Positions 909 to 64,000 are shown, counted from the first letter of the stretch. The stretch: 64,000 nt of DNA from an uncultured Acidobacteriota bacterium (GCA_963714035.1 OY970224.1:1093240-1157239); one strand, 5' to 3'. The notes: generated by a model not told the origin, from the letters alone. Program-made: numbers and translations.

Positions 909-969
909 AGCCCGGGCCGGAGGAGGATCCGATGACGCACCCCGCTCTTTCCTCGACGCGGAGGTCTCG

Positions 970-10862: not shown

Positions 10863-10871
10863 GATGAACCG

Positions 10872-13277
10872 ATGAGCACTCTCTTCCAGGATGTCCGTTA
10901 TGCGCTCCGCGGGCTGCGACGAAGCCCCGGATTCACCACGATCGCGATCCTGATGCTCGCCCTCGGCGTGGGATCGACGACGGCGGTCTTCTCGATCATC
11001 TATTCGCTCCTCTGGAAACCGCTCCCCTACCCGGCTCCCGCGCGGCTCGTGCGGCTCTTCGAGACGCGTCCGGAAAAGGGAATCGACAAGGCGGCGGTCG
11101 CCGACGGGGAATTCGTCGAGTGGCAGGCTCGCGCGGAGTCGTTCGACGGGCTCGCCGCCGTCCTCTATCCCGGGTTCACGCTCGTCTCCGGGGGCGAAGC
11201 TCACCAGATCGAGGGCATCCGCACGAGCCCGGACTTCCTCCAGATCCTCGGCGCTCGGCCGCTCGCGGGCCGGTTCTTCACGCCCGCCGATGGGCGTCCG
11301 GGAGCGCCGCCGGTCGCGGTGCTCGGAGCCACCCTGTGGCGTTCCCGCTTTCAGGGGAATCGATCGATCCTCGGCCGCACGATCTCTCTCGACGGGCGCC
11401 CGACGACGGTCGTCGGAATTCTTCCCGAAGGGTTCGACTGGTACGGCAAGGTCGACGCGGTCGCGCCCCTCGCCTTCGACGCGGCGGACGCGGCCGACTT
11501 CCACCACCACCACCTCGACGTGTTCGGACGGCTGAAGGAGGACGCGCCGCTCGCCCGCGCGCGCGCCGAGATGAACTCCGTCGCCGCCGTCGTCTCGCGC
11601 GACCATTCGGCCTCTCGCGGAGACGGAATCGGCATCGCGCCGCTGCGCGAAGACATGGCGGGGCCGACCGCGAGCTCGTTGCGCCTCGCGCTCGGCGCGA
11701 TCCTGTTCGTCCTCCTCGTCGCCTGCGCGAACCTCGCGAACCTCCTCCTCGCCCGCTCCTCGCGGCGCCGGCGGGAGATCTCGATCCGGCTCGCCGTCGG
11801 CGCGAGCCGCGTCCGGCTCGTGCGTCAGCTCCTGACGGAGAGCATCGTTCTGGCCGCCGGGGGCGCCGCCGCCGGGATCGGCGTCGCCTTCGTGGCGGTC
11901 GAGGGCGCCCGGACCGTCCTCGGAGGAATGTCGCGGGCTCCGGAGATCGGACTTCATCCGGCTTCTCTGCTGTTCGGAGCGGTGCTCGCCGCCGGTACCG
12001 GCCTCGCCTTCGGCCTCGCTCCCGCTCTCCAGCTCGCCGGAGAAGGCGCCCGCTCGCGGAGTCTGTCGGGATCGCTTCCCTCGGCGCAACGATCTTCGAA
12101 GCGGATGCGGCAGGCGTTCGTCGCAGGCGAAGTCGCCCTGTCTCTCATCCTGCTGCTGTCCGGCGGTCTCCTCCTCCGCACCTTCTGGAACCTGGAGCGG
12201 GTGAATCCCGGGTTCGGCCCGGCGAGGCTCGCGGCGGTGTCGGTCGATCTTCCGGAGGCGCGCTACCCGGACCTTCCGGCGGCCGCCGATTTCCTGCAGC
12301 GGACAGCGTCGGATCTCGGGACGATCCCCGGGGCGGATTCGGCCGGAGTCGTCAACATAGTTCCGCTCTCGGGAAACGATTCCGGGTCGGGGCTCCTGCT
12401 CGACGGGAACGACGACCCCGCGGTAGATCCGCCGTCCGTGCAGTACCGCGTCGAGGGCGCCGATTCCTTTCGGGCGCTCGGCATCGCCATGCAGCGCGGG
12501 CGACCCTTCGACTCCCGCGATCGTGCGGATTCCCAGCCGGTCGCCATCGTGAACCGGGCGTTCGCGAGCCGATTCTGGCCCGGGAAGGACGCCGTCGGCC
12601 GACGTCTGAAGATCGGCCGACGATCGCCGCAGACTCCGTGGCGCATCGTCGTCGGAGTCTCCGACGACGTGCGGGAGCAGACTCTCGATCTCCCCTCCGT
12701 TCCGGAAGTGGACGTTCCGCTCGGACAGTGGCCGGTCCGACGGGCGGTCTTCGTCGTCCGTGCGCGCCGCTCGCCGATAGCGATCCTCGGCGCGATCCGC
12801 GCGCGCCTTCGCGTCGCCGATCCGGAGCTCCCGACCGACGACCTCGACGTCTACCCGCACCTCGTTTCCCAGTCGCTCGCGTCGCGCCGGTACCTCGCCC
12901 AGGCCGTGGCGGGCTTCGCGGGAGCGGCATTCCTCCTCGCGGCGATCGGAATCTACGGCGTGATCTCCTACCGCGTCGCCGAGCGGACCCGCGAGATCGG
13001 GATCCGGATCGCCCTCGGGGCGCGCGGCGGCCGCGTGATGCGCCTCGTCGTCGGCGAGGGCGCGCGAGTCGTCGGGGCGGGGCTGCTCGTCGGCCTCGCC
13101 GCCTCGGCCGTCGCCACGCGACTTCTCGCAAGCTTTCTGTTCGGCGTCCGGCCGATCGATCCGGCGACGTTCGCCGCCGTCTCCCTGCTCCTCTTCGTGA
13201 CGGGCGTCGCCGCGGCCTGGTTCCCTGCCCGCCGCGCGGCGCGGATAGACCCGATGAAGGCGCTCAGGGAAGAGTGA
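10872..13277 (+). CDS. ADOP-family permease 5
   Basis: 801 aa. N-terminus is MSTLFQDVRYALRGLRRSPGFTTIAILMLALGVGSTTAVFSII. C-terminus is ARRAARIDPMKALREE. Confidence 0.9.
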   Translation: MSTLFQDVRYALRGLRRSPGFTTIAILMLALGVGSTTAVFSIIYSLLWKPLPYPAPARLVRLFETRPEKGIDKAAVADGEFVEWQARAESFDGLAAVLYPGFTLVSGGEAHQIEGIRTSPDFLQILGARPLAGRFFTPADGRPGAPPVAVLGATLWRSRFQGNRSILGRTISLDGRPTTVVGILPEGFDWYGKVDAVAPLAFDAADAADFHHHHLDVFGRLKEDAPLARARAEMNSVAAVVSRDHSASRGDGIGIAPLREDMAGPTASSLRLALGAILFVLLVACANLANLLLARSSRRRREISIRLAVGASRVRLVRQLLTESIVLAAGGAAAGIGVAFVAVEGARTVLGGMSRAPEIGLHPASLLFGAVLAAGTGLAFGLAPALQLAGEGARSRSLSGSLPSAQRSSKRMRQAFVAGEVALSLILLLSGGLLLRTFWNLERVNPGFGPARLAAVSVDLPEARYPDLPAAADFLQRTASDLGTIPGADSAGVVNIVPLSGNDSGSGLLLDGNDDPAVDPPSVQYRVEGADSFRALGIAMQRGRPFDSRDRADSQPVAIVNRAFASRFWPGKDAVGRRLKIGRRSPQTPWRIVVGVSDDVREQTLDLPSVPEVDVPLGQWPVRRAVFVVRARRSPIAILGAIRARLRVADPELPTDDLDVYPHLVSQSLASRRYLAQAVAGFAGAAFLLAAIGIYGVISYRVAERTREIGIRIALGARGGRVMRLVVGEGARVVGAGLLVGLAASAVATRLLASFLFGVRPIDPATFAAVSLLLFVTGVAAAWFPARRAARIDPMKALREE

Positions 13278-53247: not shown

Positions 53248-53802
53248 TCAATCCATCTTCTCGACCGACCGGCGGCCGAGCACCACCGCGCCGACGATCG
53301 CGACCAGCAGGAAGAGCGACGCGATCTCGAACGGCAGCAGGTACTCGCGGTAGAGCCCCCAGGCGATCGCCTGGCTGTTGCCGAGCACCCGCCCGGCCAC
53401 GGTCCGGAACGCGTCGGGCGAGAAGGGCGCCCCCGGGCCGATCGGATCGAGGATGAGCTGCGCGTCGAAGAGGACGTTCAGCACGAACCCGAGCACGACC
53501 GCGGCGACGATCTGCTTCTGGTAAGGATCCGTCTGCGGCAGGCGCTGCACGTTGACGAGCATGATCACGAAGAGGAACAGCACCATGATCCCGCCCGCGT
53601 AAACGAGGATCTGGACGGCGCCGACGAACTCGGCGCTCTGGAGGAAGAAGATCCCCGCGACCATGAGGAACGCCGCGAGGAGGAAAAGTGCGGAATGGAT
53701 CGGGTTCCGGGCGAGGACGACCGAAATCGCGCACACGACGGCGATGAGCGCGAAGATCGCGAAGATCCCGCCGGAGAGTCCCGTGAGGAGAGCCTCGCTC
53801 AA
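53248..53802 (-). CDS. nuoJ: NADH-quinone oxidoreductase subunit J
   Basis: TTG at 53802 overlaps the nuoI TGA (TTGA). The motif is ARNPIHSALFLLAAFLMVAGIFFLQSAEFVGAVQILVYAGGIMVLFLFVIMLV. Confidence 0.8.
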   Translation of the reverse strand: MSEALLTGLSGGIFAIFALIAVVCAISVVLARNPIHSALFLLAAFLMVAGIFFLQSAEFVGAVQILVYAGGIMVLFLFVIMLVNVQRLPQTDPYQKQIVAAVVLGFVLNVLFDAQLILDPIGPGAPFSPDAFRTVAGRVLGNSQAIAWGLYREYLLPFEIASLFLLVAIVGAVVLGRRSVEKMD

Positions 53803-54275
53803 CCCTGCTCCGTGATCGTGAAGGGCTTGACGTTCTCGTCCCAGTCGGTCAGCTGGTCGATGCCGAGATAGAGCGCCTGGTTGCGCTCGTAGGTCGCGAG
53901 CTCGTAGGTCTTCGTCGTGAGCCAGATGGACTTCGGCACCGTCGGACAGGCTTCCTCGCAGAGCTGGCAGAACATGCAGCGCTTCAAGTCGACGTCGAAC
54001 CGGTCGAGCACCTTCACCGACTTCCCGGCCTCGTTCTTCTCGTTGTGGAAGTCGATGTAGATGATGTTGATCGGGCACTCGATCGCGCAGAGCGTGCACT
54101 TGATGCACCGCTCCTCGTCCAGCCGGAACATCCCCCGGAACCGGTCGGACGGTTCCTTCTTCTCCTCGGGGTACTGGATCGTCGTCTTCTTCTTGACGAG
54201 ATGCCGCCCCGTGACGCCGAGCCCGTCGAAGAGGTCGAGGAGGGTCAGTCGATCGAGCCATTTCTTGAGCTTCAC
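53799..54275 (-). CDS. nuoI: NADH-quinone oxidoreductase subunit I (2x[4Fe-4S] ferredoxin)
   Basis: GTG at 54275 follows GGAGG and overlaps the nuoH TGA (GTGA). The two cluster motifs are CIKCTLCAIECP and CMFCQLCEEACP. Confidence 0.85.
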   Translation of the reverse strand: MKLKKWLDRLTLLDLFDGLGVTGRHLVKKKTTIQYPEEKKEPSDRFRGMFRLDEERCIKCTLCAIECPINIIYIDFHNEKNEAGKSVKVLDRFDVDLKRCMFCQLCEEACPTVPKSIWLTTKTYELATYERNQALYLGIDQLTDWDENVKPFTITEQG

Positions 54276-55411
54276 GGGCGGACCTCCGCCACGGCGAGAC
54301 GGCGCCGGAGCCTGGAAAGGAGGAAGAGGAGGACGAAGAACGCGGTGAGCACCCCGCCGAGGATCCGGAGGCCGCGTCCGTGCACGGTGTCGGCGAGGAC
54401 GCATCCCGCGACGATCATGATGTTGGCGAGCGCCATCGGGATCAGCCATTTCCACCCGAGATTCATCAGCTGGTCGAACCGGTAGCGCGGGAACGTCGAC
54501 CGGAACCAGATGTAGCAGAAGATGAAGAACCCGACCTTCAGCAGGAACCACAAGATCCCGGGGACGACCCGCAGCCCGGGAAGCAGGTGCGGGAAAGGCG
54601 GAAGCCACCCGCCGAAGAAGAGCGTGACCGCGACGGACGAGACGACGATCATCGCGGTGTATTCGCCGAGGAAGTAGAAGGCGAACTTGATCCCGGAGTA
54701 CTCGGTGTTGAATCCGGAAACGAGCTCCGACTCGGCCTCGGGGAGGTCGAACGGGTTGCGGTTGGTCTCCGCGATCCCGGAGACGAAATAGAGGAAGAAG
54801 GAGAGGAGGCCGGGAAAGATGAACCAGAGGTGCAGCCGGTCCTGAACGCGCACGATCTCGACGAGCGAGAGCGAACGCGACATCAGGAGCACCGCGACGA
54901 TCGAAAGCCCCATCGGGACTTCGTAGGAGACGAGCTGCGCCGCCGAGCGCAGTCCGCCGAGCAGGGAGAACTTGTTGTTCGACGCCCAACCTCCGAGGAT
55001 GATCCCGTACACGCCGATCGACGTGATGCCGAGGAGAAAGAGCAGCCCGACGTTGACGTCGGCGACGTAGAGCGGCGTTTCGACGCCCGCAATCCGGATG
55101 CTCTCGCCGAACGGAATCAGCGCGAGCGCGGTGAGGGCCGGGATCACGGAGAGCACCGGCCCGAGGAAGTGGCTCACCTTCTCGGCCCGGGTCGGCGTGA
55201 GGTCCTCCTTCGTCACGAGCTTCAGGAGGTCCGCGAGCCCCTGCAGGAGGCCCTGCGGCCCCACGCGGTTGGGCCCGAGCCGTCCCTGCATGAACCCCAT
55301 GATCCGGCGCTCGGCGTAGACGATCACGAACCCGACGATCGCCGGGACGACGAGGACGATCAGGAGGATCTTGACGGCCGTGAGCACCGTCTGGAGCGTG
55401 GCCGGGCTCAC
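54272..55411 (-). CDS. nuoH: NADH-quinone oxidoreductase subunit H
   Basis: GTG at 55411 overlaps the nuoD TGA (GTGA). It has AERRIMGFMQGRLGPNRVGPQGLLQGLADLLKL and FDLPEAESELVSGFNTEYSG motifs. Confidence 0.85.
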   Translation of the reverse strand: MSPATLQTVLTAVKILLIVLVVPAIVGFVIVYAERRIMGFMQGRLGPNRVGPQGLLQGLADLLKLVTKEDLTPTRAEKVSHFLGPVLSVIPALTALALIPFGESIRIAGVETPLYVADVNVGLLFLLGITSIGVYGIILGGWASNNKFSLLGGLRSAAQLVSYEVPMGLSIVAVLLMSRSLSLVEIVRVQDRLHLWFIFPGLLSFFLYFVSGIAETNRNPFDLPEAESELVSGFNTEYSGIKFAFYFLGEYTAMIVVSSVAVTLFFGGWLPPFPHLLPGLRVVPGILWFLLKVGFFIFCYIWFRSTFPRYRFDQLMNLGWKWLIPMALANIMIVAGCVLADTVHGRGLRILGGVLTAFFVLLFLLSRLRRRLAVAEVRP

Positions 55412-56613
55412 CGGTCGACCTCGCCGAGAACGATGTCGACGGTGCCGATGAGGGCGACGAGGTCGGACACCAGGTGACCGCGGGCGAGCCGCGGCAGCGC
55501 CTGGAGGTTGATGAAGGAGGGCGGCCGCACGTGGAGCCGATACGGCTTGCTCGTGCCGTTGGACACGAGGTAGAACCCGATCTCCCCTTTGGGAGACTCG
55601 ACCGACGCGTACACCTCTTCGGCGGTCGGCTTGATGACGCGGGGAACCTTCCCCTTGATCTCGCCCGGCTCGAGCCGGTCGAGGCACTGGCGGACGATCT
55701 TCGCCGACTGGCGCATTTCTTCGATCCGCACGAGGTAGCGATCGTACGTGTCGCCGTTCTTCCCGGTCGGCACGACGAAATCGAGCTCCTCGTAGCATTC
55801 GTACGGCTGCGCTCGCCGGAGATCCCACTCGACGCCGGAGCCCCGGATCACGGGCCCCGTCAGGCCCCATTCGATGCACTCCTCGGCCGAGATCACGCCG
55901 ATTCCCACCGTCCGCTTCTTCCAGATGCGGTTGTCGGTCAGCAGCGTCTCGTAGTCGTCGATCTTCGACGGGAAATCGTCGATGAACGCGCGGACCGCTT
56001 CCGTCCATCCCGGGGTCAGGTCGAACGGCAGCCCCCCGATCCGCATGCAGTTCAACGTCAGCCGCGCGCCGCAGTACTCCTCGAAGAAATCGAGGATCTG
56101 CTCCCGCTCGCGGAAGCAGTACCAGAAGGGCGTCACCGCGCCGAGGTCGATTCCCGAGGTGCCGAGCCAGACCAGATGCGACGAGATCCGCTGGAGCTCG
56201 TCGAGGATCACGCGAATGAGCTGGGCGCGGCGCGGGATCTCGACGCCGAGCAGCTTCTCGACGGTCAGGCAGTACGCGTGGTTGCTCGTCGCCGCGGCGA
56301 TGTAGTCCATCCGGTCCGTGTGCGGGATGGCCATCGGATACGTCTCGGTCTCGAAGAGCTTTTCGGTGCCGCGATGCAGATAGCCGATGTCGGGAATCGC
56401 GTCGACGATCTTCTCGCCGTCGACCTTCAGCACGATCCGGAGCACGCCGTGCGTGGAGGGATGCTGCGGCCCGAAGTTGAGCTCCATCTCCGTGACGTCG
56501 AAGAGGGTCTTCGGCGCCGCGACGGTGCGGGCGGGCGGCTGGTGGAGCGTCGCGGCGGCTTTCGCCCGCGCGGCGAAGTAGTCGGCCTCTTCCTGCTCGG
56601 GGGTGCGGCTCAT
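55408..56613 (-). CDS. nuoD: NADH-quinone oxidoreductase subunit D
   Basis: NFGPQHPSTHGVLRIVLKVDGE and the C-terminal DIVLGEVDR are present. The ATG at 56613 is preferred over the ATG at 56676, whose 21 extra codons have poor third-position GC and lie in a duplicated intergenic motif. Confidence 0.85.
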   Translation of the reverse strand: MSRTPEQEEADYFAARAKAAATLHQPPARTVAAPKTLFDVTEMELNFGPQHPSTHGVLRIVLKVDGEKIVDAIPDIGYLHRGTEKLFETETYPMAIPHTDRMDYIAAATSNHAYCLTVEKLLGVEIPRRAQLIRVILDELQRISSHLVWLGTSGIDLGAVTPFWYCFREREQILDFFEEYCGARLTLNCMRIGGLPFDLTPGWTEAVRAFIDDFPSKIDDYETLLTDNRIWKKRTVGIGVISAEECIEWGLTGPVIRGSGVEWDLRRAQPYECYEELDFVVPTGKNGDTYDRYLVRIEEMRQSAKIVRQCLDRLEPGEIKGKVPRVIKPTAEEVYASVESPKGEIGFYLVSNGTSKPYRLHVRPPSFINLQALPRLARGHLVSDLVALIGTVDIVLGEVDR

Positions 56614-56621
56614 CGGGAAGC

Positions 56622-56718
56622 TTTCGGTTCGGCCGTCTTCACGAGGCTGCCCATTCGCTCGTCGCTCGCGACGCATTTCGGTTCGGCTGTCTTCACGAAG
56701 CTTTCCATTGACTCGTCG
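56622..56718. repeat. Two copies of a 43-bp direct repeat in the nuoC-nuoD spacer
   Basis: tttcggttcggccgtcttcacgaggctgcccattcgctcgtcg (56622-56664) aligns with tttcggttcggctgtcttcacgaagctttccattgactcgtcg (56676-56718). The period is 54 nt. Confidence 0.8.
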
Positions 56719-56721
56719 GGC

Positions 56722-57294
56722 CTACGACAGCACTTTCCGGTTCGGGTCGTCGGACGGGGGGCCTCCGCCGGCCGGCCACTCCTCCGGATAGATCGCCGCG
56801 CCCGTGTCGATCCCTTCGACGGGGAAGTCCTTGCGGAGCGGATATCCCTGGAACCCGTCCCACGTCACGATGCGCCGCAGGTCCGGATGGCCGGAGAACG
56901 CGATCCCGAAGAGGTCCCAGATCTCGCGCTCCGACCAGTTCGCGGCGAGGAACGTCGTCGCGATCGACGGGACGTCCTCTCCTTCGGCGCAGCCGAGCTT
57001 CACGCGGATGCGATCGTTCTTCGAGAACGAATAGAAGTGGTAGACGACCTCGAACCGGGGCTGCCGGTCGCGCCAGTCCACGGCCGTCACGTCGACGCAG
57101 TACTTGAAGTCCTGCGCGTCCTTCAGGTGTCGGGCCACGTCGACGATCTTTTCGCGGGCGACGGTCACCGTCACCTGCCGGGCGAACTCCTTCGCGGCGA
57201 CGACGGCGCCGGGCACCGCGGCGGAAAGCTCCGCGACCCAGGGGTGGCCCGAAGCGTCGGTCGCGGCGGGTTTCGCCGCCGGCTTCTCCGCCAC
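56722..57294 (-). CDS. nuoC: NADH-quinone oxidoreductase subunit C
   Basis: GTG start 1 nt after the nuoB stop. Motif is FEVVYHFYSFSKNDRIRVKL...ANWSEREIWDLFGIAFSGHPDLRRI. It is separate from nuoD, not fused. Confidence 0.88.
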   Translation of the reverse strand: MAEKPAAKPAATDASGHPWVAELSAAVPGAVVAAKEFARQVTVTVAREKIVDVARHLKDAQDFKYCVDVTAVDWRDRQPRFEVVYHFYSFSKNDRIRVKLGCAEGEDVPSIATTFLAANWSEREIWDLFGIAFSGHPDLRRIVTWDGFQGYPLRKDFPVEGIDTGAAIYPEEWPAGGGPPSDDPNRKVLS

Positions 57295-57295
57295 G

Positions 57296-57781
57296 TCAGG
57301 AAGCCTTGCGGATGACCTTCATCCGATCGATCTTCTTCTGCAGCTGGATGATCCCGTACAGGAGCGCCTCGGGCCGCGGCGGACAGCCGGGCACGTAGAC
57401 GTCGACCGGGACGACCCGGTCGACCCCCTGCGTGACGGCGTACGTCCGATAGGGGCCGCCGCAGGTCGCGCACGAACCCATCGCGATCACCCATTTCGGA
57501 TCGGGCATCTGGTCGTAGAGCCGTTTGACGACGGGCGCCATCTTCTCGACGACGGTGCCCGCGACGATCATCAGGTCGGACTGCCGCGGCGTCCCGCGGA
57601 ATACCTCGGCGCCGAAGCGCGCGAGGTCATGGCGGGCGTCCATGACCGCCATCATCTCGATCGCGCAGCACGCGAGGCCGAACTGCATGGGCCAGATCGC
57701 GCTTCGGCGCGCCCAGTTGATGACGGAGTCGACGGTGGTCGTGAGGACGTTTTCTTCGAATCGGTTGGTGAGGATGCTCAT
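57296..57781 (-). CDS. nuoB: NADH-quinone oxidoreductase subunit B
   Basis: N2-cluster ligand motifs [21 protein letters not shown] and VPGCPPRPE are present. Confidence 0.92.
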
Positions 57782-57794
57782 GCGGCGAAATCCC

Positions 57795-58151
57795 TCATGC
57801 CCACTGGAGCGCGCCGCGCTTCCAGGCGTAGAAGTAGCCGACGACGAGGATCGCGAGGAACACGAGCATCTCGACGAAGCCGAAGAGGGCGAGCTTGTCG
57901 AGAAGGATGGCCCAGGGGAAGAGAAAGACGGTCTCGACGTCGAAGACGACGAAAAGCACCGCGATCAGGAAATAGCGGGCGGAAAAGCGGTAGTCGAAGG
58001 CCGTCGTGGGCGACTCGATACCGCACTCGTACGGCTCCCCCTTCGCCGGGTTCGGGATTCCGTGCTGAAGGAGCTTCGCGACGACGATCGTTCCGATCGG
58101 CAGCGCTGCCGCGAGGATCGCGAACACCAGGATGAAAAAATACGATTCCAT
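57795..58151 (-). CDS. nuoA: NADH-quinone oxidoreductase subunit A
   Basis: 118 aa with three TM segments. Motif is GEPYECGIE...[12 protein letters not shown]. Confidence 0.9.
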
Positions 58152-58174: not shown

Positions 58175-59359
58175 TCAGCTCCGGGATGTCAATGTGAAGG
58201 AATTCACAAGCGGCGCCATCCCCTTCGACTGAACGAGAACCGAGAGATCCTCGCCGATTCCCTCCGGGTCGAAGAGGCGAAACGCTTCCAGGCGTCTGTC
58301 GCGCGCCTTCAGGGCACGGCCGTCGCGTGCCTCCCCGGCACGGCCGTCGCGTGCCTCGCCGTTACGGCTGTCGCGCGCCTCGCCGGCACGGCTGTCAGGC
58401 GCCTCCCCGGCGTCTTCGAAGAGGCCGGCCTTCATCAGGAATTCCGCCTGCCGCATCCGCGCCTCCGTCCCGAACCCCTCCTCTTCGCCCGCGCGCGCCA
58501 GATCGTCCCAGTTGACGTGGGCGGTCAGGTCGACCTCGCCGGGGCGCTCGAGCGGATCCCCGCCGCGGCGTCCCCCCGCGTGTACCGCGAGAGTTCCGTG
58601 CGGGCGGGCACCCGGGTGATACAGCACGCCGGCCCGGTGCCCGTAGTCGAACGCGACGAGGCGCCCTCGGGAAACGAGGCGAGCGAGCGAGCGATGCAGC
58701 GGCGCCGCATCGAGGTTGATCTCGGCCTCCTGCCCCTCCGCGAGCTCGATGGCGAACCGCGAGAGATATTCGTGCAGCGGCGCGGGGGCCGGCGCGGCCG
58801 ACCAGCCGAAGCCGCCTCCCTCTTCCGTCACCCGCAGCTCGAGAAGGCGACCGCCGGAGACGGTGACGCGGTGGACCGGCAGAGCGTCGTAGAGCTCGTT
58901 GGAGAAGACCCACCCCTCGAAAGGCTCGTCGATCCACTCCGCGGGATCGTCGGCAACCGCGTCCGCGAGGCCCGCCCGGGCGATCGCCGCTCTCCCCGGA
59001 GCCGAGCGTTCGACGGCGCGCAGCCGGGTCCGCCGCGACACGTCGGGAGCGAGGTCTTCGAGGGCCGCTCGGAAGTCCCTCAGCAGCCCCCCGACGCCCG
59101 CCGCGGCTTCGCAGAAGACGATCTCCGACGCGAATTCGGCCGCATCCGCCGCGAAGACCCGCGCGACGGCGCGGGCGAAGAGAGGCGAGATCGTCGGCGA
59201 CGTCACGAAGTCCCCTCCCTCGCCGATCGCGGCGCGCCCCGCGTAGTAGCCGTCCGCGGCGTCGTAGAGCGCGGCTTCCATGAAATCGCGGAAGGAGATC
59301 GGGCCCTCCCGCCCGATGCGCTCCCGCAGCCGCCGGACGAGCCGGGAGTCGCCGCTCAA
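58175..59359 (-). CDS. MidA/NDUFAF7-family (DUF185) SAM-dependent methyltransferase
   Basis: TTG start 4 nt after the upstream stop. Motif is ISFRDFMEAALYDAADGYYAGRAAIGEGGDFVTSPTISPLFARAVA, and the family architecture continues to the C-terminus, which carries an octapeptide repeat insertion. Confidence 0.75.
   Translation of the reverse strand: MSGDSRLVRRLRERIGREGPISFRDFMEAALYDAADGYYAGRAAIGEGGDFVTSPTISPLFARAVARVFAADAAEFASEIVFCEAAAGVGGLLRDFRAALEDLAPDVSRRTRLRAVERSAPGRAAIARAGLADAVADDPAEWIDEPFEGWVFSNELYDALPVHRVTVSGGRLLELRVTEEGGGFGWSAAPAPAPLHEYLSRFAIELAEGQEAEINLDAAPLHRSLARLVSRGRLVAFDYGHRAGVLYHPGARPHGTLAVHAGGRRGGDPLERPGEVDLTAHVNWDDLARAGEEEGFGTEARMRQAEFLMKAGLFEDAGEAPDSRAGEARDSRNGEARDGRAGEARDGRALKARDRRLEAFRLFDPEGIGEDLSVLVQSKGMAPLVNSFTLTSRS
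58292..58411. repeat. In-frame 24-bp tandem repeat (5 units) inside the MidA-like gene
   Basis: It encodes AGEAPDSR-AGEARDSR-NGEARDGR-AGEARDGR-ALKARDRR on the minus strand. The nucleotide units are gcg(t/c)gcctc(g/c)ccg(g/t)(c/t)acggc(c/t)gtc-like. Confidence 0.85.
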
Positions 59360-59363
59360 CCGT

Positions 59364-60485
59364 TCAGGGCGCCGGCGCGCGGGGAGCCGGCGCGGCTTCC
59401 CCTCTCGAAGGCACCAGGCCCTCGACCTTCGACCGCGGCAAGCCCTCCACTCCGTACACGAGCCCGATCCCCGGCGTGCCTTTTACGGCGAGGGCATCCC
59501 GCTCCGCGAGCGCCTCCTCGCGGGTCCCGTATTCGCCGAGCATCACGCGGAACCAGAGGCCCGGTTTCGCGCCGAGATTGACGGCGACCACGTGGAGCGG
59601 GCGCCCCAGGACCTTCGCGAGACGCGCGGCGTCCCTTTCGGCGTTCTCCTTCTTCTGGAAAGAGGAGAAGTGGATCATCCAGACGGGCGCCCCTGTCCAG
59701 TCGGGCGACAGCATCGTCGAGCCGTGCGACTCGGGAATTGCGGGAGGAGGCGGGGCGGACGGCGCCACGCTCGCGACGGCCGGCGCGGAGGGCGGGCCGA
59801 CGACGTGAAGCGGGGCGCCGGTCGGCGGCGCGATCGGCCCGGGGGCTGCCGTGGCCGCCGATCGGTCGGCTGAGGCGGCGGCGTCGAACGGCGAAACGGG
59901 AGAAACGCGCCGGGTCTTCGCGAAAAACCAGACTCCGCCCCCGATGGCGACGACGAGCAGAAAGACCGCGAGCTTCCCGCCGCGGGGCCGGGGCCGATCG
60001 ACCGTGTCGAACTCGATTTCCTCGGGGATGTCGTCCTCTTCTTCGGGATCCGGAGCCTCGCCCTCGGCGGCGGTCTCGGAGACGAAGGCGAACGGCTCGG
60101 GAGCGGGTCGTTCGACCATGGGTCGTCCGACGGCGCCGAAGACGTCCGATTCGTCGCCGAAAGACTCGCCGTCGGGATTCGCCGCGAGTCTCTCCTCGAT
60201 CGGCTCTTCCGGGAATGGCGCGTCCTCGTTCCACCCGCCGAGGCCGATCCGTTCTCCACCGAGGTCCGACGGAAGGAGCCGCACCGCGCGCTCGGCGAGC
60301 TCGGAAAGCGCCGCGGCCGAAAAACCCGTCCGCGTCAGCCGCAGCTCTTCCGCGCACACCTGCTGTGCCGCCCGGAAAACCTCCGCGCGGCGCTCGGGCG
60401 GGATCCCGAGGCTTCGGACGACCGCCTCGACGACTTCCGTCACCCCCGGCACCCGGGGCCGTTCCCGCGGACCGTGCTCCGGCAA
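59364..60485 (-). CDS. Bitopic SPOR-domain protein (acidic cytoplasmic N-domain, one TM, Pro/Ala linker, C-terminal SPOR)
   Basis: TTG at 60485 lies 5 nt after GGGAGG and 15 nt after the upstream stop. TM segment is LAVFLLVVAIGGGVWFFA. The SPOR-like part is WMIHFSSFQKKENAERDAARLAKVLGRPLHVVAVNLGAKPGLWFRVMLGEYGTREEALAERDAL. The start is uncertain; GTG at 60452 or 60443 are alternatives. Confidence 0.7.
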   Translation of the reverse strand: MPEHGPRERPRVPGVTEVVEAVVRSLGIPPERRAEVFRAAQQVCAEELRLTRTGFSAAALSELAERAVRLLPSDLGGERIGLGGWNEDAPFPEEPIEERLAANPDGESFGDESDVFGAVGRPMVERPAPEPFAFVSETAAEGEAPDPEEEDDIPEEIEFDTVDRPRPRGGKLAVFLLVVAIGGGVWFFAKTRRVSPVSPFDAAASADRSAATAAPGPIAPPTGAPLHVVGPPSAPAVASVAPSAPPPPAIPESHGSTMLSPDWTGAPVWMIHFSSFQKKENAERDAARLAKVLGRPLHVVAVNLGAKPGLWFRVMLGEYGTREEALAERDALAVKGTPGIGLVYGVEGLPRSKVEGLVPSRGEAAPAPRAPAP

Positions 60486-60499
60486 GACGCCCTCCCGGC

Positions 60500-61522
60500 T
60501 CAATCCGAGAGGCTCTCCCAGTCGGTCTCCGGCGCGTCGAGCGCGATCGCCAGGCCGCCGTTCGAACCGGCGAAGACGGGGTCCTCGACGGCGCGGACGC
60601 GTCCGCCACCCATCTCGCCGAGGGTCTTCTCGAGCGCCGCCGCGAGGCCCGGGATCTGCGACCCTCCGCCGGCGAGAATGACGTTCCGGCGGACGTCCTC
60701 CTGGTATTCCGGCTCGACCCGGGAGATCAGGTCGAGCATCGTCTCGGAGATCGGGCCGAGCAGGCTCTCGCACGCGCGCCGCATCTCCGCCGTGATGTCG
60801 AGATCCGTGGGCTTCCCGTGGACGGGCACCTTCACGACGACCGGCGCCTTCGGCTCGCCGACGAAGCTCCCCTTTTCCTTCCAGTCGCGGACCATGTAGA
60901 TCGAGAAGCGCCCGTCCGGCATCTTGTTGCGGACGAGTGTGGCGAGCTGCTCGTCGACCGCGTCGCCCGCGTTCGTGAGCGTCCGCTGGTCGTCTTCGGT
61001 CGGGTAGCGGCCGTTCATCACGCAGAAATCGGTCGTGCCGGCGCCGATGTCGATGATCATCGTGTGGAGGAGCGAGTCCATCCCGTACGCGACCGCGAAC
61101 GGCTCGGACACGATCATCAGCGAGTCGGCCATCCCGGCGACCGCGTTCCGAAGGTGCTGCCGGGAAACGCGGAGCGCCTCGGCGGGCACGCCGACGACCG
61201 CGAAGACCCTCTGGCTCTCCTTCGCGCCCGCGAGCGAGATCAGATGTCCCAGGAGCTCCCGTACGGCCTGCTCGTCCTTCTGCGAGCCTTCCTTGATGAG
61301 CCCCCGTTCGAGGGGACGATGCAGATCGAGCATCGGGCGGTTGTCGAGCGCCTCTTTTCCGAAGAGCACCGCTTTCTTGACGACCTTGCGGGCGACCATG
61401 TCGACCGGCCAGCCGACGTAGCTGTCGACGACCTCGCGGGCGCCGTTCGAAGCGGAGATCGAGCTTCGGGAGGTGCCGAGGTCGATCCCGACCTGCAGCA
61501 CATCGTTCTTCGATTTCGTCAT
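60500..61522 (-). CDS. Actin-like ATPase of the MreB/MamK superfamily, closest by eye to MamK-like proteins
   Basis: ATG at 61522 overlaps the amidase TGA (ATGA). The 340-aa product has phosphate-1 VGIDLGTSRS, phosphate-2 MIIDIGAGTTDFCV and adenosine motif VILAGGGSQIPGLAAAL. Blocks YVGWPVDMV, IVSEPFAVAYGMD, VEPEYQEDV and AVEDPVFAGSNGGL parallel the MamK sequence as I recall it. Confidence 0.75.
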   Translation of the reverse strand: MTKSKNDVLQVGIDLGTSRSSISASNGAREVVDSYVGWPVDMVARKVVKKAVLFGKEALDNRPMLDLHRPLERGLIKEGSQKDEQAVRELLGHLISLAGAKESQRVFAVVGVPAEALRVSRQHLRNAVAGMADSLMIVSEPFAVAYGMDSLLHTMIIDIGAGTTDFCVMNGRYPTEDDQRTLTNAGDAVDEQLATLVRNKMPDGRFSIYMVRDWKEKGSFVGEPKAPVVVKVPVHGKPTDLDITAEMRRACESLLGPISETMLDLISRVEPEYQEDVRRNVILAGGGSQIPGLAAALEKTLGEMGGGRVRAVEDPVFAGSNGGLAIALDAPETDWESLSD

Positions 61523-62532
61523 GAAACCCCTTTCCCCGCGGGCATCGCGGCGCGCGCGACCCCTTCGGCGGACGTTTCCGGGTCGAGGATGCGGCGGATC
61601 CCGGCATGGAGCGCGCGCGCGAGCTCGGAGCGGTATTCCGGCGTCGCGAGCCTCCGGGCTTCCTCCGCGTTGGAGATGCAGGAAATTTCGGCCAGCACGG
61701 CGGGCATCCGCGTCCCGACCAGGACGACGAGCGGCGCGGTCTTCACGCCGCGGTTCTGGAGCCGGTCGTTCACGGAGCGGAGGGCGTCGAAATACGCCGC
61801 CTGAAGCGTCGCGGCGAACCGCCGGGACTCGTCCTGCCGCACGCCGGCGTAGACGCCTTCGAGAAGCGTTCGGAAGTCGGCGAGCGAATAGCCCGACCCC
61901 GTGTTCTCGCCGCGCGCGAACCGGGTCGTTTCGGGATCGCTCGTGGCGCCGAGGTAGAACGTCTCGATCCCGACGCGGTCGGGAACGGGCATCGAGTTGA
62001 TGTGGATCGAGAGGAAGAGATCCGCGTTCTCGGAGTTCGCGATCTCGACGCGGCGCTCGAGGGAGAGCGCCCGGTCGTCCGTCCGGGTGAGCACGACGGA
62101 GATCGGCTCGTCCTTCAGCAGCGCGCGCAGCCGCTCCGCGACGTCGAGCGTGATCGCCTTCTCCTCGAGCCCCTGCCGGGTCATCGCGCCCGGATCGCTC
62201 CCCCCGTGGCCCGGATCGATCACGAGCTTGCGGACGGCGAGCCGGAAGAGCGAAGGATCGATGGCCCGCGGCGCGGGAAGCGCCACCGGCCGCGGAATCG
62301 CCGGGGGCGGAAGATCGGCCGCCGCGCGGCGCCCCGGACGCGACGCCCGGGCGCCCGGCGGGGCGATCGCGCCGGAGAACGCGACGAGAAGCGTCGCGCC
62401 GAGCCCGCCGATGAGCCATCCGCTGATCGTCCGGCGGCGGCGCAGGCCCGGCGGCCGTTCCCCGCGGGCCGTCGCGAGGTTCTCGCGGACGAGGGCGCGG
62501 ATCATCTGCTGCTTGAGGCGATCTTTTCCCAT
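61519..62532 (-). CDS. N-acetylmuramoyl-L-alanine amidase (Amidase_3 / AmiC-like) with an N-terminal membrane anchor
   Basis: ATG at 62532. Motifs are KLVIDPGHGGSDPGA, ADLFLSIHINS and APLVVLVGTRMPAVLAEISCISN. The N-terminal hydrophobic segment is ISGWLIGGLGATLLVAF. Confidence 0.85.
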   Translation of the reverse strand: MGKDRLKQQMIRALVRENLATARGERPPGLRRRRTISGWLIGGLGATLLVAFSGAIAPPGARASRPGRRAAADLPPPAIPRPVALPAPRAIDPSLFRLAVRKLVIDPGHGGSDPGAMTRQGLEEKAITLDVAERLRALLKDEPISVVLTRTDDRALSLERRVEIANSENADLFLSIHINSMPVPDRVGIETFYLGATSDPETTRFARGENTGSGYSLADFRTLLEGVYAGVRQDESRRFAATLQAAYFDALRSVNDRLQNRGVKTAPLVVLVGTRMPAVLAEISCISNAEEARRLATPEYRSELARALHAGIRRILDPETSAEGVARAAMPAGKGVS

Positions 62533-62625
62533 GGGCGCTGATCGCGAAGTGTAGCAGGGTGCTCCCTCTCCACCCCCGGGGAGCCGTTCCTGCATGCCCG
62601 CGGAGGGCGACCGAAATCCGCAACC

Positions 62626-62631
62626 TATAAT
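62626..62631 (+). promoter_or_regulatory. Possible -10 box (exact TATAAT) for the divergent AAA+ ATPase gene
   Basis: An exact TATAAT hexamer sits in an otherwise GC-rich divergent spacer, 28 nt upstream of the ATG at 62660 and ahead of a GGGGAGGG RBS. No convincing -35 box is present. Confidence 0.25.
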
Positions 62632-62659
62632 GGCCCCGGGCCGGGGAGGGACCGCGGCC

Positions 62660-64000
62660 ATGACGGCGGCCGACTCGGCAGGGGGGCGCGTGAAACCTCG
62701 GACTCTCGGAGAACTGAAGACCAGCGGTTACCGCGCGAGAAGCGTCAAGGACGAACTCCGCGAGAACCTGATCGCGGTCCTCCGCAAGGGCGAAGACCCC
62801 TTCCCGGGGATCTTCGGATACCGCCACACGGTCCTCCCGATGCTCCACAACGCGATCCTCGCGCGCCACGACATCATCCTCCTCGGGCTGCGCGGACAGG
62901 CGAAGACCCGTCTGCTGCGCTCCCTCGTCAATCTCCTCGACGAAGGGCTCCCCGCGATCGCGGGAAGCGAGGTCAACGAGAGCCCCTTCGAGCCGATCAC
63001 CGGGTTCGGCCGGCGGACCGTGGCGGAGCGCGGCGACGAGACCCCGATCGTCTGGATCCCGAGAAGCGAGCGGTACCGGGAGAAGCTCGCGACCCCCGAC
63101 GTCACGATCGCGGACCTGATCGGCGACATCGACCCGATCAAGGCGGCGACCCAGAAGCGGACGTACTCCGACGAGGAGATCATCCATTACGGCATCGTTC
63201 CCCGCACGAACCGCGGGATCTTCGCGATCAACGAGCTCCCGGACCTCCAGCCGCGGATCCAGGTCGGCCTGCTCAACATCCTCGAGGAGCGCGATCTCCA
63301 GATCCGCGGGTTTCCGGTGAGGATCCCGCTCGACATCCTCCTCGTCTTTTCCGCGAACCCCGAGGACTACACGAACCGAGGGAACATCATCACGCCGCTC
63401 AAGGACCGGATCTCGTCGCAGATCCTCACCCACTACCCGGACGACGTGAAGACGGCGCGCGCGATCACGGACCAGGAAGCGTGGACGGAACGGCCCGGCG
63501 GCGTCGAGGCCGACGTGCCCGAGTACTTCAAGGAGCTCGTCGAGAAGATCGCGTTCGCGGCGCGTCAGTCCGAGTTCGTGGACCAGTCTTCGGGCGTCTC
63601 CGCGCGCATGCCGATCTCGGCCCTCGAGATCCTCTATTCGAACCTCGAACGCCGCGGGATCCTGCGCGGCGAGGAGCGCGTCTTCCCGCGGCTCTGCGAC
63701 CTCCTCGCCTGCCTCCCCGCGATCACGGGGAAAGTCGAGGTCGTTTACGAGGGCGAGCAGCAGGGGACGGAAGTCATCGCGAAGAAGCTCATCTCGGGCC
63801 CCGTCGCCGATCTTTTCAAGGAAAAGTTCCCCCCCGTCGATTCGGGAAGGCGAACCGAGCGCTCGCGCACCCCGCCGCCCGAAGACCCCGAAGAGCCGCA
63901 GCCGCGCTCCCGGGCGCGTTTCCCGACCGAAGAGCCGGACAAGTTGAATCCCGTGTACCGCGAGATCGTCGACTGGTTCGCCGCGGGAAACCGCATCGAC
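62660..64000 (+). CDS. AAA+ ATPase of the Mg-chelatase ChlI/BchI-like (sigma54-interaction-like) type; 3' end beyond the window
   Basis: It is not in the supplied track because it has no stop in the window. The frame is open for 447 codons from ATG 62660 with GC-rich third positions. It has a degenerate P-loop LLGLRGQAKTRLL, Walker B/sensor region GIFAINELPDLQPRIQVGLLNILEERD, and VFSANPEDYTNRGNIITPLKDRI. Confidence 0.7.
   Translation, partial: MTAADSAGGRVKPRTLGELKTSGYRARSVKDELRENLIAVLRKGEDPFPGIFGYRHTVLPMLHNAILARHDIILLGLRGQAKTRLLRSLVNLLDEGLPAIAGSEVNESPFEPITGFGRRTVAERGDETPIVWIPRSERYREKLATPDVTIADLIGDIDPIKAATQKRTYSDEEIIHYGIVPRTNRGIFAINELPDLQPRIQVGLLNILEERDLQIRGFPVRIPLDILLVFSANPEDYTNRGNIITPLKDRISSQILTHYPDDVKTARAITDQEAWTERPGGVEADVPEYFKELVEKIAFAARQSEFVDQSSGVSARMPISALEILYSNLERRGILRGEERVFPRLCDLLACLPAITGKVEVVYEGEQQGTEVIAKKLISGPVADLFKEKFPPVDSGRRTERSRTPPPEDPEEPQPRSRARFPTEEPDKLNPVYREIVDWFAAGNRID

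What the first reader, a model, noticed from the sequence alone, without database searches (positions are those of the whole stretch)
59364..62532. Amidase, MamK-like actin and acidic bitopic SPOR protein form a candidate cytoskeleton-to-peptidoglycan module
Three genes are chained by an ATGA overlap and a 14-nt gap. The first is a membrane-anchored Amidase_3 cell-wall hydrolase. The second is an actin-fold ATPase whose conserved blocks resemble MamK more than canonical MreB, by my recollection of MamK. The third has a strongly acidic cytoplasmic domain (EGEAPDPEEEDDIPEEIEFD), one TM segment, a Pro/Ala linker and a periplasmic SPOR domain, which binds denuded glycan strands. There is no sign of magnetosome genes. 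The layout suggests a filament on the cytoplasmic side tethered through the bitopic protein to amidase-processed peptidoglycan. The acidic adaptor would play a role analogous to MamJ with MamK. This would be a morphogenesis or division device distinct from MreBCD and FtsZ-FtsN, and I do not know of a described equivalent.
Basis: partly seen in the sequence, partly recalled or inferred. Interest (0 to 1): 0.7.

Follow-up and report, generated by a model that had tools for sequence, protein, structure and literature searches.

The report
Actin-like filament gene paired with wall amidase
A MamK-type bacterial actin gene is locked in an operon with a membrane-anchored cell-wall amidase in at least 80 uncultured soil and sediment species from several phyla (plus a SPOR wall-binding protein in one acidobacterial group), which points to an undescribed cytoskeleton-to-cell-wall device whose function nobody has tested.

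Summary
On the minus strand lie three genes. The first is an AmiA-type Amidase_3 gene (61519-62532). The second is a MamK-family actin gene (60500-61522, ATGA overlap). The third encodes a bitopic SPOR protein (59364-60485, 14-nt gap).

The actin is not MreB. NCBIfam scores are MamK 380 bits, BeeR 227 and MreB 67. The best solved structure is MamK (E 1e-72).

The pairing is not chance. In 79 of 80 species-level loci the same amidase sits directly upstream of the actin, while the other flanking genes differ. These loci carry Acidobacteriota, Methylomirabilota/Rokubacteria, Binatia, Eisenbacteria and 'delta' labels.

The conserved core is two genes. The amidase has its own conserved cytoplasmic N-terminal helix (RLKxxhLRxAVxEN) before its membrane segment. 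The SPOR protein is an add-on in one acidobacterial subgroup (40 loci). Its conserved features are a cytoplasmic three-helix domain and the SPOR domain. The strong acidic patch is not conserved.

No magnetosome genes, mreCD, phage genes or defence genes accompany the module, and I found no paper describing it.

My best reading is that cytoplasmic filaments hold the tails of the amidase and the SPOR protein and so position peptidoglycan splitting, much like the FtsA-FtsN-amidase loop. The protein contacts and the localisation are inferred, not shown.

The parts
61519..62532 (-). Gene 1: bitopic AmiA-type N-acetylmuramoyl-L-alanine amidase (337 aa)
   Evidence: Pfam Amidase_3 at 1.4e-48. Best PDB sequence and best fold match are both E. 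coli AmiA 8c2o. Found upstream of the actin in 79 of 80 loci.
62458..62526 (-). Conserved cytoplasmic N-terminal helix of the amidase (aa 3-25, KDRLKQQMIRALVRENLATARGE; consensus RLKxxhLRxAVxENhxxhxG). Candidate actin-binding tail.
   Evidence: Detected in 73 of 80 loci with a local HMM. Six of the seven misses are cut by contig ends. N18 is invariant and G24 nearly invariant. AF2 predicts a helix at aa 2-22. Also present in the sister-clade amidase in L081.
62365..62427 (-). Hydrophobic segment of the amidase (aa 36-56), preceded by RRRR. Predicted N-in signal anchor.
   Evidence: Read from the sequence, the alignment and the AF2 helix at aa 39-50, which has low confidence. Cleavage has not been excluded.
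61588..62232 (-). Periplasmic Amidase_3 catalytic domain (aa 101-315)
   Evidence: The Zn and catalytic residues H109, E124, H177 and E282 are invariant in 37 homologues.
61816..61950 (-). Insertion at the position of the AmiA/B/C regulatory (autoinhibitory) helices (aa 195-239)
   Evidence: It aligns continuously with AmiA and AmiC. It is skipped in short amidases such as 5emi and CwlV. It is highly conserved (E209, N210, S213, G214, Y215, L217, D219) yet modelled with low pLDDT.
60500..61522 (-). Gene 2: MamK-family actin-like ATPase (340 aa)
   Evidence: NCBIfam MamK 380 bits (cutoff 400), BeeR 227, MreB 67. PDB MamK at 1e-72. 38% identical to MamK of AMB-1 and 24% to MreB. Forms a clade with 100/100 bootstrap support.
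59364..60485 (-). Gene 3: bitopic SPOR protein (373 aa), an add-on specific to one acidobacterial lineage
   Evidence: It lies directly downstream of the actin in 40 loci, and carries SPOR in the same ORF in all 32 of those with enough sequence.
60270..60455 (-). Conserved cytoplasmic three-helix N-domain of the SPOR protein (aa 11-72)
   Evidence: Alignment A1. AF2 pLDDT above 90, with helices at aa 15-26, 30-52 and 60-70. No PDB fold relative (best E 0.7).
60201..60233 (-). Short linear motif W-x-E/D-D/E-A-P-F-P-E-E-P in the disordered cytoplasmic linker
   Evidence: Alignment A1, with P92, P95 and F109 nearly invariant. Related 'EDPF/APF' motifs are seen in more distant homologues.
60006..60065 (-). 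Juxtamembrane acidic cluster (aa 141-160)
   Evidence: Present in the window and its close relatives (the last 40 aa before the TM have net charge -8 to -11). Absent in more distant homologues (net -3 to +2).
59919..59975 (-). Single transmembrane segment of the SPOR protein (aa 171-189)
   Evidence: Hydropathy maximum of 2.13. One such segment is present in all full-length homologues.
59478..59681 (-). Periplasmic SPOR domain (aa 269-336)
   Evidence: Pfam PF05036 at 7.3e-9, 36.3 bits against a cutoff of 21. PF05036 is precomputed for 25 of the 26 listed matches; the exception is P0144, an ORF fused to the neighbouring methyltransferase.

Best explanation
This is a conserved module in which a MamK-family actin is dedicated to a membrane-anchored peptidoglycan amidase.

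Proposed mechanism:
- The actin polymerises in the cytoplasm.
- The amidase spans the membrane once. Its conserved N-terminal amphipathic helix stays in the cytoplasm and attaches to the filament. Its AmiA-type catalytic domain, which carries the regulatory insertion, faces the wall.
- The filament therefore decides where stem peptides are cut from the glycan strands. The most likely site is the division or cell-separation site.
- In one acidobacterial lineage a third protein joins. Its SPOR domain reads the denuded glycans that the amidase produces. Its cytoplasmic three-helix domain and linear motifs connect back to the filament or to the amidase tail. This would give a self-reinforcing loop like FtsA-FtsN-AmiABC.

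Shown: gene order, domain identities, the clade-specific and cross-phylum synteny, and the conserved cytoplasmic elements.

Inferred: topology, filament formation, every protein-protein contact, the site of action, and the direction of information flow.
For: - Identity of the parts.
- Tight coupling: the ATGA overlap and the 14-nt gap in the window. In other loci there are 0-40 nt between the amidase and the actin, and in about two dozen loci the actin stop and the SPOR-gene start overlap by 4 nt.
- Synteny: the amidase lies directly upstream on the same strand in 79 of 80 species-level loci, with actin identity of 66-84%. No other neighbour is shared across lineages.
- The linkage also holds in the sister clade (P0149, 53% identical), which includes a Nitrospira MAG protein. 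It does not hold in the next MamK-like clades. The pairing is therefore a clade-defining trait.
- The amidase-linked clade has 100/100 NJ bootstrap support and is separate from true MamK.
- The amidase carries a conserved cytoplasmic helix with an invariant Asn in all phyla. Such conservation is hard to explain for a mere signal-peptide n-region.
- The catalytic residues are invariant, so the enzyme is probably active.
- The SPOR protein has a confidently folded, conserved cytoplasmic domain, and it always co-occurs with the pair where it is present.
- From established knowledge: SPOR domains bind amidase-denuded glycans; FtsN links them to the actin homologue FtsA; RodZ and ParR show that bitopic or helical adaptors bind bacterial actins.
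Against: - No interaction, localisation or phenotype data exist.
- No multimer prediction could be run.
- The amidase's hydrophobic segment is modelled with low confidence and could be a cleaved signal peptide, which would release the N-terminal helix.
- The three-helix N-domain has no structural relative that would indicate actin binding.
- No division (dcw) genes or LytM activator genes are linked.
- Whether these genomes also carry FtsA, MreB and other amidases could not be checked.
- All source genomes are MAGs, and their taxonomic labels are taken from the record titles.
Confidence: 0.5

Rival explanations
1. Co-regulated but physically independent. The actin positions some cytoplasmic cargo (DNA, an inclusion or a non-magnetic organelle), as MamK and ParM do. 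The amidase and SPOR genes merely share its operon and cell-cycle timing.
For: Other MamK-family clades have unrelated partners: a coiled-coil protein, a parAB/bactofilin neighbourhood, and unknown giant proteins. The family is therefore versatile. No contact has been shown here.
Against: The pairing survives complete turnover of the flanking genes across several phyla. The amidase carries a conserved cytoplasmic helix that has no obvious role if nothing cytoplasmic binds it. No candidate cargo gene is conserved nearby.
Confidence: 0.2
2. Divisome variant. The MamK-like protein acts as an FtsA-like membrane-proximal partner of FtsZ. The SPOR protein is the lineage's FtsN or DamX, and the amidase is the septal AmiA/C equivalent.
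For: The parts list (actin, bitopic SPOR protein, AmiA-type regulated amidase) mirrors FtsA-FtsN-AmiABC. JGI names two homologues 'FtsN'. An FtsZ-MamK-family fusion protein exists elsewhere in the family (P0227).
Against: No ftsZ, ftsQ or ftsA or other dcw genes were found in the window genes tested or in the conserved neighbours. No NCBIfam family, FtsN included, matches the SPOR protein. Its cytoplasmic part is 170 aa with a folded domain, unlike FtsN's short tail. The actin has no terminal amphipathic membrane helix like FtsA's (sequence). P0227 groups with true MamK, not with this clade.
Confidence: 0.15
3. A mobile lysis, defence or phage-derived cassette: an endolysin-like signal-anchored amidase together with a phage or plasmid actin.
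For: Signal-anchored amidases and actin homologues both occur on mobile elements. The genomic context differs between phyla. Rokubacteria actins are 77-78% identical to acidobacterial ones, which hints at some horizontal transfer.
Against: There is no significant PADLOC hit; the only match is a marginal 24.7-bit hit of the actin. No phage, integrase or plasmid genes lie in the flanks. The context is stable within lineages, for example about ten Rokubacteria species share the same flanks. The amidase is of the regulated AmiA type and not the short endolysin type.
Confidence: 0.05
4. An ordinary housekeeping MreB paralogue, or a genuine magnetosome MamK, misread by the first reader.
For: Public annotation calls these proteins 'rod shape-determining protein MreB'. 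The MamK model is the top hit.
Against: MreB models score 54-67 bits against cutoffs of 293-366. Identity to E. coli MreB is 24%. No mreCD is adjacent. No magnetosome genes were found in the window or in 80 loci. The clade is separate from MamK of AMB-1, with 100/100 bootstrap support for its own monophyly.
Confidence: 0.03

Closest known systems
MamK (magnetosome actin of magnetotactic bacteria; PDB 5LJW, 5JYG, 5LJV)
   Same: It is the closest characterised and closest solved homologue (E 1e-72, 38% identity). The two proteins align end to end, and the nucleotide-binding motifs and the SEP catalytic Glu are conserved.
   Different: The window protein scores just under NCBI's family cutoff (380 against 400). 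It forms a separate, tightly conserved clade. No magnetosome genes are present. Its partner genes are an amidase and a SPOR protein, not MamJ, MamY or McaAB.
FtsA-FtsN-AmiA/B/C septal peptidoglycan loop (E. coli; from established knowledge)
   Same: The same three kinds of parts are present: an actin-fold protein in the cytoplasm, a bitopic protein whose cytoplasmic N-terminus would contact it and whose periplasmic SPOR domain reads denuded glycans, and a regulated Amidase_3 that makes those glycans.
   Different: The actin is of MamK type and not FtsA. The amidase is itself membrane-anchored with a conserved cytoplasmic helix and lacks an AMIN domain. The SPOR protein has a 170-aa cytoplasmic part with a folded domain and matches no FtsN model. 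The genes form one operon away from any dcw genes.
MreB-RodZ, and MreBH-LytE of Bacillus subtilis (from established knowledge)
   Same: RodZ has the same layout as gene 3: a cytoplasmic helical domain that binds an actin, a linker, one TM segment and a periplasmic domain. MreBH-LytE is a precedent for an actin homologue directing a wall hydrolase.
   Different: The N-domain shows no detectable fold similarity to RodZ's HTH or to anything else in the PDB. The actin is not MreB. LytE is secreted and is not encoded next to mreBH.
BeeR (Verrucomicrobiota; PMC11929497) and saltatorellin (Saltatorellota; bioRxiv 10.1101/817700)
   Same: Both are MamK-related actins in non-magnetotactic bacteria that form filaments and whose cellular roles are unknown or only hypothesised.
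   Different: The BeeR model scores 227 bits against a cutoff of 530. The window protein has no long disordered N-terminal domain. Neither paper mentions an amidase or SPOR partner.
LytH-ActH (S. aureus) and CwlD-GerS: membrane-anchored Amidase_3 enzymes with dedicated partners (PDB 7tj4, 7rag)
   Same: They are single-pass membrane-anchored Amidase_3 enzymes whose activity or place of action depends on a partner protein. They are fold matches at E about 1e-15 to 1e-16.
   Different: Their partners are membrane proteins or lipoproteins, not a cytoskeletal filament. They lack the AmiA-type regulatory insertion and the conserved cytoplasmic helix.
DamX and DedD (bitopic SPOR division proteins of E. 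coli; from established knowledge)
   Same: Same layout of cytoplasmic region, one TM segment, periplasmic linker and C-terminal SPOR. DamX also has a sizeable cytoplasmic part.
   Different: There is no sequence match outside the SPOR domain (one search gives no family). This protein has a conserved three-helix N-domain and is encoded directly after an actin gene.

Membership tests
MamK family (NCBIfam NF040964) | Score at or above the curated family cutoff | tested here: not met
   380 bits against a cutoff of 400 (E 9e-114), covering the full length. It is still the best family by more than 150 bits. The sister-clade protein is named 'MamK family' by NCBI.
MamK family (NCBIfam NF040964) | Actin-fold ATPase motifs (phosphate 1 and 2, adenosine, catalytic Glu of SEP) | tested here: met
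   The alignment to MamK 5LJW/5JYG shows GIDLGTS, VSEPF, DIGAGTTD and AGGGS conserved.
MamK family (NCBIfam NF040964) | Encoded with magnetosome genes and organises magnetosome chains | tested here: not met
   No magnetosome-type genes were found among the window neighbours tested or among the conserved neighbours of 80 loci. Only 64 kb of the genome was visible.
MamK family (NCBIfam NF040964) | ATP-dependent two-stranded filament formation | not testable with these tools
   Requires biochemistry or EM.
MreB | Match to MreB profiles at curated cutoff | tested here: not met
   NF010539 scores 66.7 against 293, and TIGR00904 scores 54.3 against 366. PDB MreB matches at E 1e-11. Identity to E. 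coli MreB is 24%.
MreB | Adjacent mreC and mreD | tested here: not met
   The neighbours are an amidase and a SPOR protein. No other neighbour family is conserved across lineages.
BeeR | Match to NF053558 at cutoff | tested here: not met
   226.7 bits against a cutoff of 530. PDB 8r2n matches at E 2e-46.
Amidase_3 / AmiA-B-C type cell-separation amidases | Amidase_3 domain with Zn ligands and catalytic Glu | tested here: met
   PF01520 scores 165.7 bits. H109, E124, H177 and E282 are invariant in 37 homologues. Best fold match is AmiA 8c2o at 1e-18.
Amidase_3 / AmiA-B-C type cell-separation amidases | Regulatory (autoinhibitory) helix insertion in the catalytic domain | tested here: met
   Query residues 195-255 align continuously with AmiA and AmiC and are skipped by short amidases. 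Whether the insertion occludes the active site cannot be judged, because pLDDT is below 50 there.
Amidase_3 / AmiA-B-C type cell-separation amidases | Orthology to AmiA, AmiB or AmiC by NCBI equivalog cutoffs; AMIN targeting domain (AmiB/C) | tested here: not met
   AmiA 119 against 400, AmiC 94 against 700, AmiB 90 against 532. No AMIN or other Pfam domain lies N-terminal of the catalytic domain.
SPOR-domain proteins | PF05036 above the gathering score | tested here: met
   36.3 bits against 21, at aa 269-336. PF05036 is precomputed for 25 of the 26 listed matches; the exception, P0144, is an ORF fused to the neighbouring methyltransferase.
FtsN | Family-level sequence match, short cytoplasmic FtsA-binding tail, periplasmic essential helix | tested here: not met
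   No NCBIfam family matches at E up to 0.01. The cytoplasmic part is 170 aa with a folded three-helix domain. No FtsN-like essential motif was seen by eye between the TM segment and SPOR.
MamJ-like acidic adaptor | Conserved acidic (repetitive) region that links cargo to MamK | tested here: not met
   The dense acidic cluster is limited to close relatives. More distant homologues have a juxtamembrane net charge of -3 to +2. Binding to the actin cannot be tested here, and no MamJ sequence was compared.

The most novel reading that the evidence does not exclude
This would be a third actin-based cell-wall machine in bacteria, alongside the MreB elongasome and the FtsA divisome. A cytomotive MamK-type filament would directly hold, and perhaps move by treadmilling, a transmembrane amidase through its cytoplasmic helix, so that peptidoglycan hydrolysis rather than synthesis is what the cytoskeleton patterns. 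In one acidobacterial lineage a SPOR 'reader' of the amidase's product would feed back to the filament.
Probability: 0.35. Interest if true: 0.85.

Novelty: new variant of a known kind. Interest (0 to 1): 0.68.

Why it matters
MamK is known only as the magnetosome-chain actin. Its many relatives in non-magnetotactic bacteria have no established function. BeeR and saltatorellin have structures or filaments but no known role.

This clade comes with an explicit, conserved partner of known biochemistry, a peptidoglycan amidase. That makes the question 'what do non-magnetosome MamK-like actins do?' directly testable. If the filament positions a hydrolase, it would add a new principle to bacterial morphogenesis, namely cytoskeleton-guided wall cutting by a dedicated actin.

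The carriers are abundant but poorly studied soil and sediment phyla (Acidobacteriota, Methylomirabilota, Binatia, possibly Nitrospirota). It also matters for annotation, because these proteins are currently labelled 'rod shape-determining protein MreB'.

Tried and rejected
- Foldseek of the SPOR protein's N-domain against the PDB gave no match better than E 0.7. A RodZ-like or other known actin-binding fold therefore cannot be claimed.
- The PADLOC scan gave no credible defence family.
- Five literature searches and four papers read turned up nothing that links a MamK-like actin with an amidase or a SPOR protein. FcmB of cyanobacteria is ParM-related and irrelevant here.
- A Rosetta-stone search for natural fusions of the amidase tail or the SPOR N-domain to actins found only P0155 and P0220. 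These join an actin fragment to the N-domain and look like frameshift or gene-call artefacts.
- A search for paralogous amidases in the loci, to serve as motif-free controls, found none.
- A look-up of the FtsZ-actin fusion P0227 found nothing on record.
- The promoter and terminator scan was uninformative in this 70% GC DNA. The only promoter-like site lies downstream, before nuoA, and the terminator-like hits lie inside coding sequence.
- My first GC3-based gene filter missed the actin and SPOR genes because they sit inside longer spurious ORFs. I used tblastn and HMM mapping instead.

Full report
**What is in the sequence**

The window is about 70% G+C. The proteins it encodes are closest to those of Thermoanaerobaculia (Acidobacteriota) MAGs, and the source contig is 3.84 Mb. 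Three genes lie head to tail on the minus strand.

- Gene 1 (61519-62532) ends in ATGA, which also starts gene 2 (60500-61522).
- Gene 3 (59364-60485) starts at a TTG 14 nt after the stop of gene 2.
- Homologues that begin at the same place, one of them with ATG, support the gene 3 start.
- The alignment of 64 orthologues supports the ATG at 62532 for gene 1, not the longer ORF.

Pfam gives Amidase_3 (1.4e-48) for gene 1. For gene 2 it gives only a weak MreB_Mbl match (72 bits). For gene 3 it gives SPOR (36 bits against a cutoff of 21) at aa 269-336. The observation as written is therefore correct.

**The actin**

NCBIfam ranks the MamK family first at 380 bits (E 9e-114, full length). This is just under its cutoff of 400. 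BeeR scores 227 bits, and the MreB models score 54-67 bits against cutoffs of about 300.

Against all PDB sequences the three MamK entries score about 1e-72, BeeR 2e-46 and MreB 1e-11. The alignment shows the nucleotide-binding motifs and the catalytic SEP glutamate intact. Identity is 38% to MamK of AMB-1 and 24% to E. coli MreB. Public annotation as 'rod shape-determining protein MreB' is misleading.

**Synteny**

A scan of one genome per GTDB species found 312 stretches encoding a relative. The best 80 were kept (66-84% identity). By their record titles they come from Thermoanaerobaculia/Holophagales and other Acidobacteriota, Rokubacteria/Methylomirabilota, Binatia, Eisenbacteria and 'delta' MAGs.

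- In 79 of the 80 loci an orthologue of the amidase (37-64% identity) lies directly upstream on the same strand. The single exception starts at a contig edge.
- Spacing is tight: 0-40 nt between the amidase stop and the start of the actin match.
- None of the window's other neighbours is shared by more than one or two loci. These neighbours are an AAA_5 ATPase gene upstream, and a MidA-type methyltransferase and the nuo genes downstream.
- All-against-all clustering of the flanks finds only lineage-specific neighbours.

The amidase-actin pair therefore travels as a unit through different genomic contexts. This is strong evidence for a functional link.

**Phylogenetic placement**

An exhaustive HMMER search of 1.84 billion cluster representatives gave 197 clusters at E up to 1e-30. 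These form a broad MamK superfamily.

- In an NJ tree rooted on MreB, the window protein, the loci and P0147 form one clade with 100/100 bootstrap support.
- MamK of AMB-1 sits elsewhere with its own relatives (97/100).
- The nearest outside cluster, P0149 (53% identity), also has an Amidase_3 gene overlapping its start, with the same kind of N-terminal motif. Its sister position has 51/100 support. One member of that cluster is an NCBI 'MamK family actin-like protein [Nitrospira sp.]'.
- The next clades have other partners: a coiled-coil protein, a parAB-bactofilin neighbourhood, and a run of unknown genes.

The amidase link is thus a trait of this subfamily and not of MamK relatives in general.

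**The amidase**

Its best PDB sequence and best fold match are both E. coli AmiA (8c2o). The alignment runs straight through query residues 195-255. This is the position of the regulatory (blocking and interaction) helices of AmiA/B/C, and short amidases such as CwlV or the Nostoc AmiC2 catalytic domain lack it.

- The Zn and catalytic residues H109, E124, H177 and E282 are invariant in 37 homologues. Many residues of the insertion are invariant as well.
- There is no AMIN domain and no clear Tat motif.
- Instead the protein begins with a conserved 23-residue helix, consensus RLKxxhLRxAVxENhxxhxG. The Asn is invariant in 65 of 65 sequences. A basic cluster and one hydrophobic segment follow.
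- A local HMM finds this motif in 73 of 80 loci. Six of the seven misses are cut by contig ends.
- AF2 models the motif as a helix at aa 2-22.

It matters because it gives the universal partner its own conserved cytoplasmic element.

**The SPOR protein**

Homologues are few: 26 at E up to 1e-5, 25 of them with PF05036 (the exception is an ORF fused to the neighbouring methyltransferase), and JGI names two of them 'FtsN'.

- Local HMMs find its N-domain immediately after the actin stop in 40 of 80 loci, all labelled Acidobacteriota.
- In all 32 of those loci with enough downstream sequence, the SPOR domain is in the same ORF.
- Thirty-five loci with room lack the gene. These include all Rokubacteria/Methylomirabilota and Binatia loci and some Acidobacteriota. 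Rokubacteria have a NUDIX-like gene in that position instead.

The conserved features are these:
- a three-helix bundle at aa 11-72 (pLDDT above 90) with no PDB fold relative;
- short W..APFPEEP / DPF motifs;
- a Pro-rich cytoplasmic linker of very variable length (cytoplasmic part 138-392 aa);
- one TM segment;
- a Pro/Ala periplasmic linker;
- the SPOR domain.

The cytoplasmic part is usually net acidic (-5 to -36). The MamJ analogy therefore rests on little.

**How it most likely works**

I commit to a filament-tethered amidase model, with confidence about 0.5.

- The actin polymerises in the cytoplasm.
- The amidase tail, and in the acidobacterial subgroup the SPOR protein's N-domain and motifs, bind the filament.
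- The periplasmic, probably autoinhibited, AmiA-type domain is thereby concentrated at a defined site.
- The SPOR domain binds the denuded glycans made there and stabilises the assembly.

This is the logic of the FtsA-FtsN-AmiABC loop and of MreB-RodZ, rebuilt around a MamK-type actin.

A division or cell-separation role is the most economical guess, because regulated Amidase_3 enzymes and SPOR proteins act at septa in the organisms where they have been studied (established knowledge). Nothing here shows the site of action.

Rival readings are scored in the report sections:
- mere co-regulation, with the actin serving another cargo (0.2);
- a true divisome replacement of FtsA (0.15);
- a mobile lysis or defence cassette (0.05; no PADLOC, phage or integrase signal);
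- plain MreB or true MamK (0.03).

**Novelty and limits**

I found no paper linking a MamK relative to an amidase or a SPOR protein. The described non-magnetotactic relatives are BeeR (PMC11929497) and saltatorellin (bioRxiv 10.1101/817700). Neither has such partners.

I rate this a new variant of a known kind. Actin plus membrane adaptor directing wall enzymes is a known principle, but a dedicated MamK-family actin paired with an amidase has not been described.

Limits:
- All evidence is comparative.
- Topology, polymerisation and contacts are predicted.
- The rest of the genome (ftsA, mreB, other amidases) could not be inspected.
- All carriers seen are MAGs.

Noticed in passing
window 800-31000 (+ strand): A long tandem array of paralogous ORFs of about 800-870 aa. 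The two that were tested (817-3426 and 10863-13277) are MacB_PCD plus FtsX permeases. This resembles the 'duplicated orphan permease' arrays typical of Acidobacteria.
   Followed up: partly
P0227 (protein from the representatives search; no contig on record): A 768-aa protein that fuses a complete FtsZ (Tubulin plus FtsZ_C) to a MamK-family actin domain. It groups near true MamK in the NJ tree. A tubulin-actin fusion is unusual and worth a separate look.
   Followed up: partly
P0159-P0183 (representatives search): A clade of MamK-family actins with N-terminal extensions of 200-900 aa and no Pfam domain. They share a coiled-coil-like motif (…QKKDRFREWTKSLGES…) near the N-terminus.
   Followed up: partly
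L088:1-13056 and L086:6001-11327: Other MamK-like clades have their own distinct contexts. P0188 sits in a run of unannotated genes that includes a protein of more than 2100 aa. P0157 lies near bactofilin, parB, parA and gidB.
   Followed up: no
window 58175-59359 (-) and 53248-58151 (-): A Methyltransf_28 (MidA/NDUFAF7-like) gene starts 4 nt after the SPOR gene's stop and is followed by what look like the nuo genes. By eye these read as nuoA, B, C, D, H, I and J, with no nuoEFG between D and H. A complex-I assembly-type methyltransferase next to nuo genes is a neat pairing.
   Followed up: partly
window 58298-58411: A 24-nt tandem repeat (4.8 copies, 84% matches) inside the 3' part of the methyltransferase gene. 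It encodes GEARD(S/G)R(A/N) peptide repeats.
   Followed up: partly
L017, L021, L023, L024, L028, L029, L033, L034, L038, L048, L050 (about 1 kb downstream of the actin): In Rokubacteria/Methylomirabilota loci the position of the SPOR gene is taken by a conserved 265-aa NUDIX-like protein (motif GGKVD…REVFEETG).
   Followed up: no
window 62594-64000 (+): The divergently oriented upstream gene encodes an AAA_5 (dynein-related/MoxR-like) ATPase that runs off the window end. It is not conserved next to the module in other loci.
   Followed up: partly
P0155, P0220: Database ORFs that join an actin fragment to the SPOR protein's N-domain. They are probably frameshift or gene-calling artefacts at the overlapping stop/start and not real fusions.
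   Followed up: no
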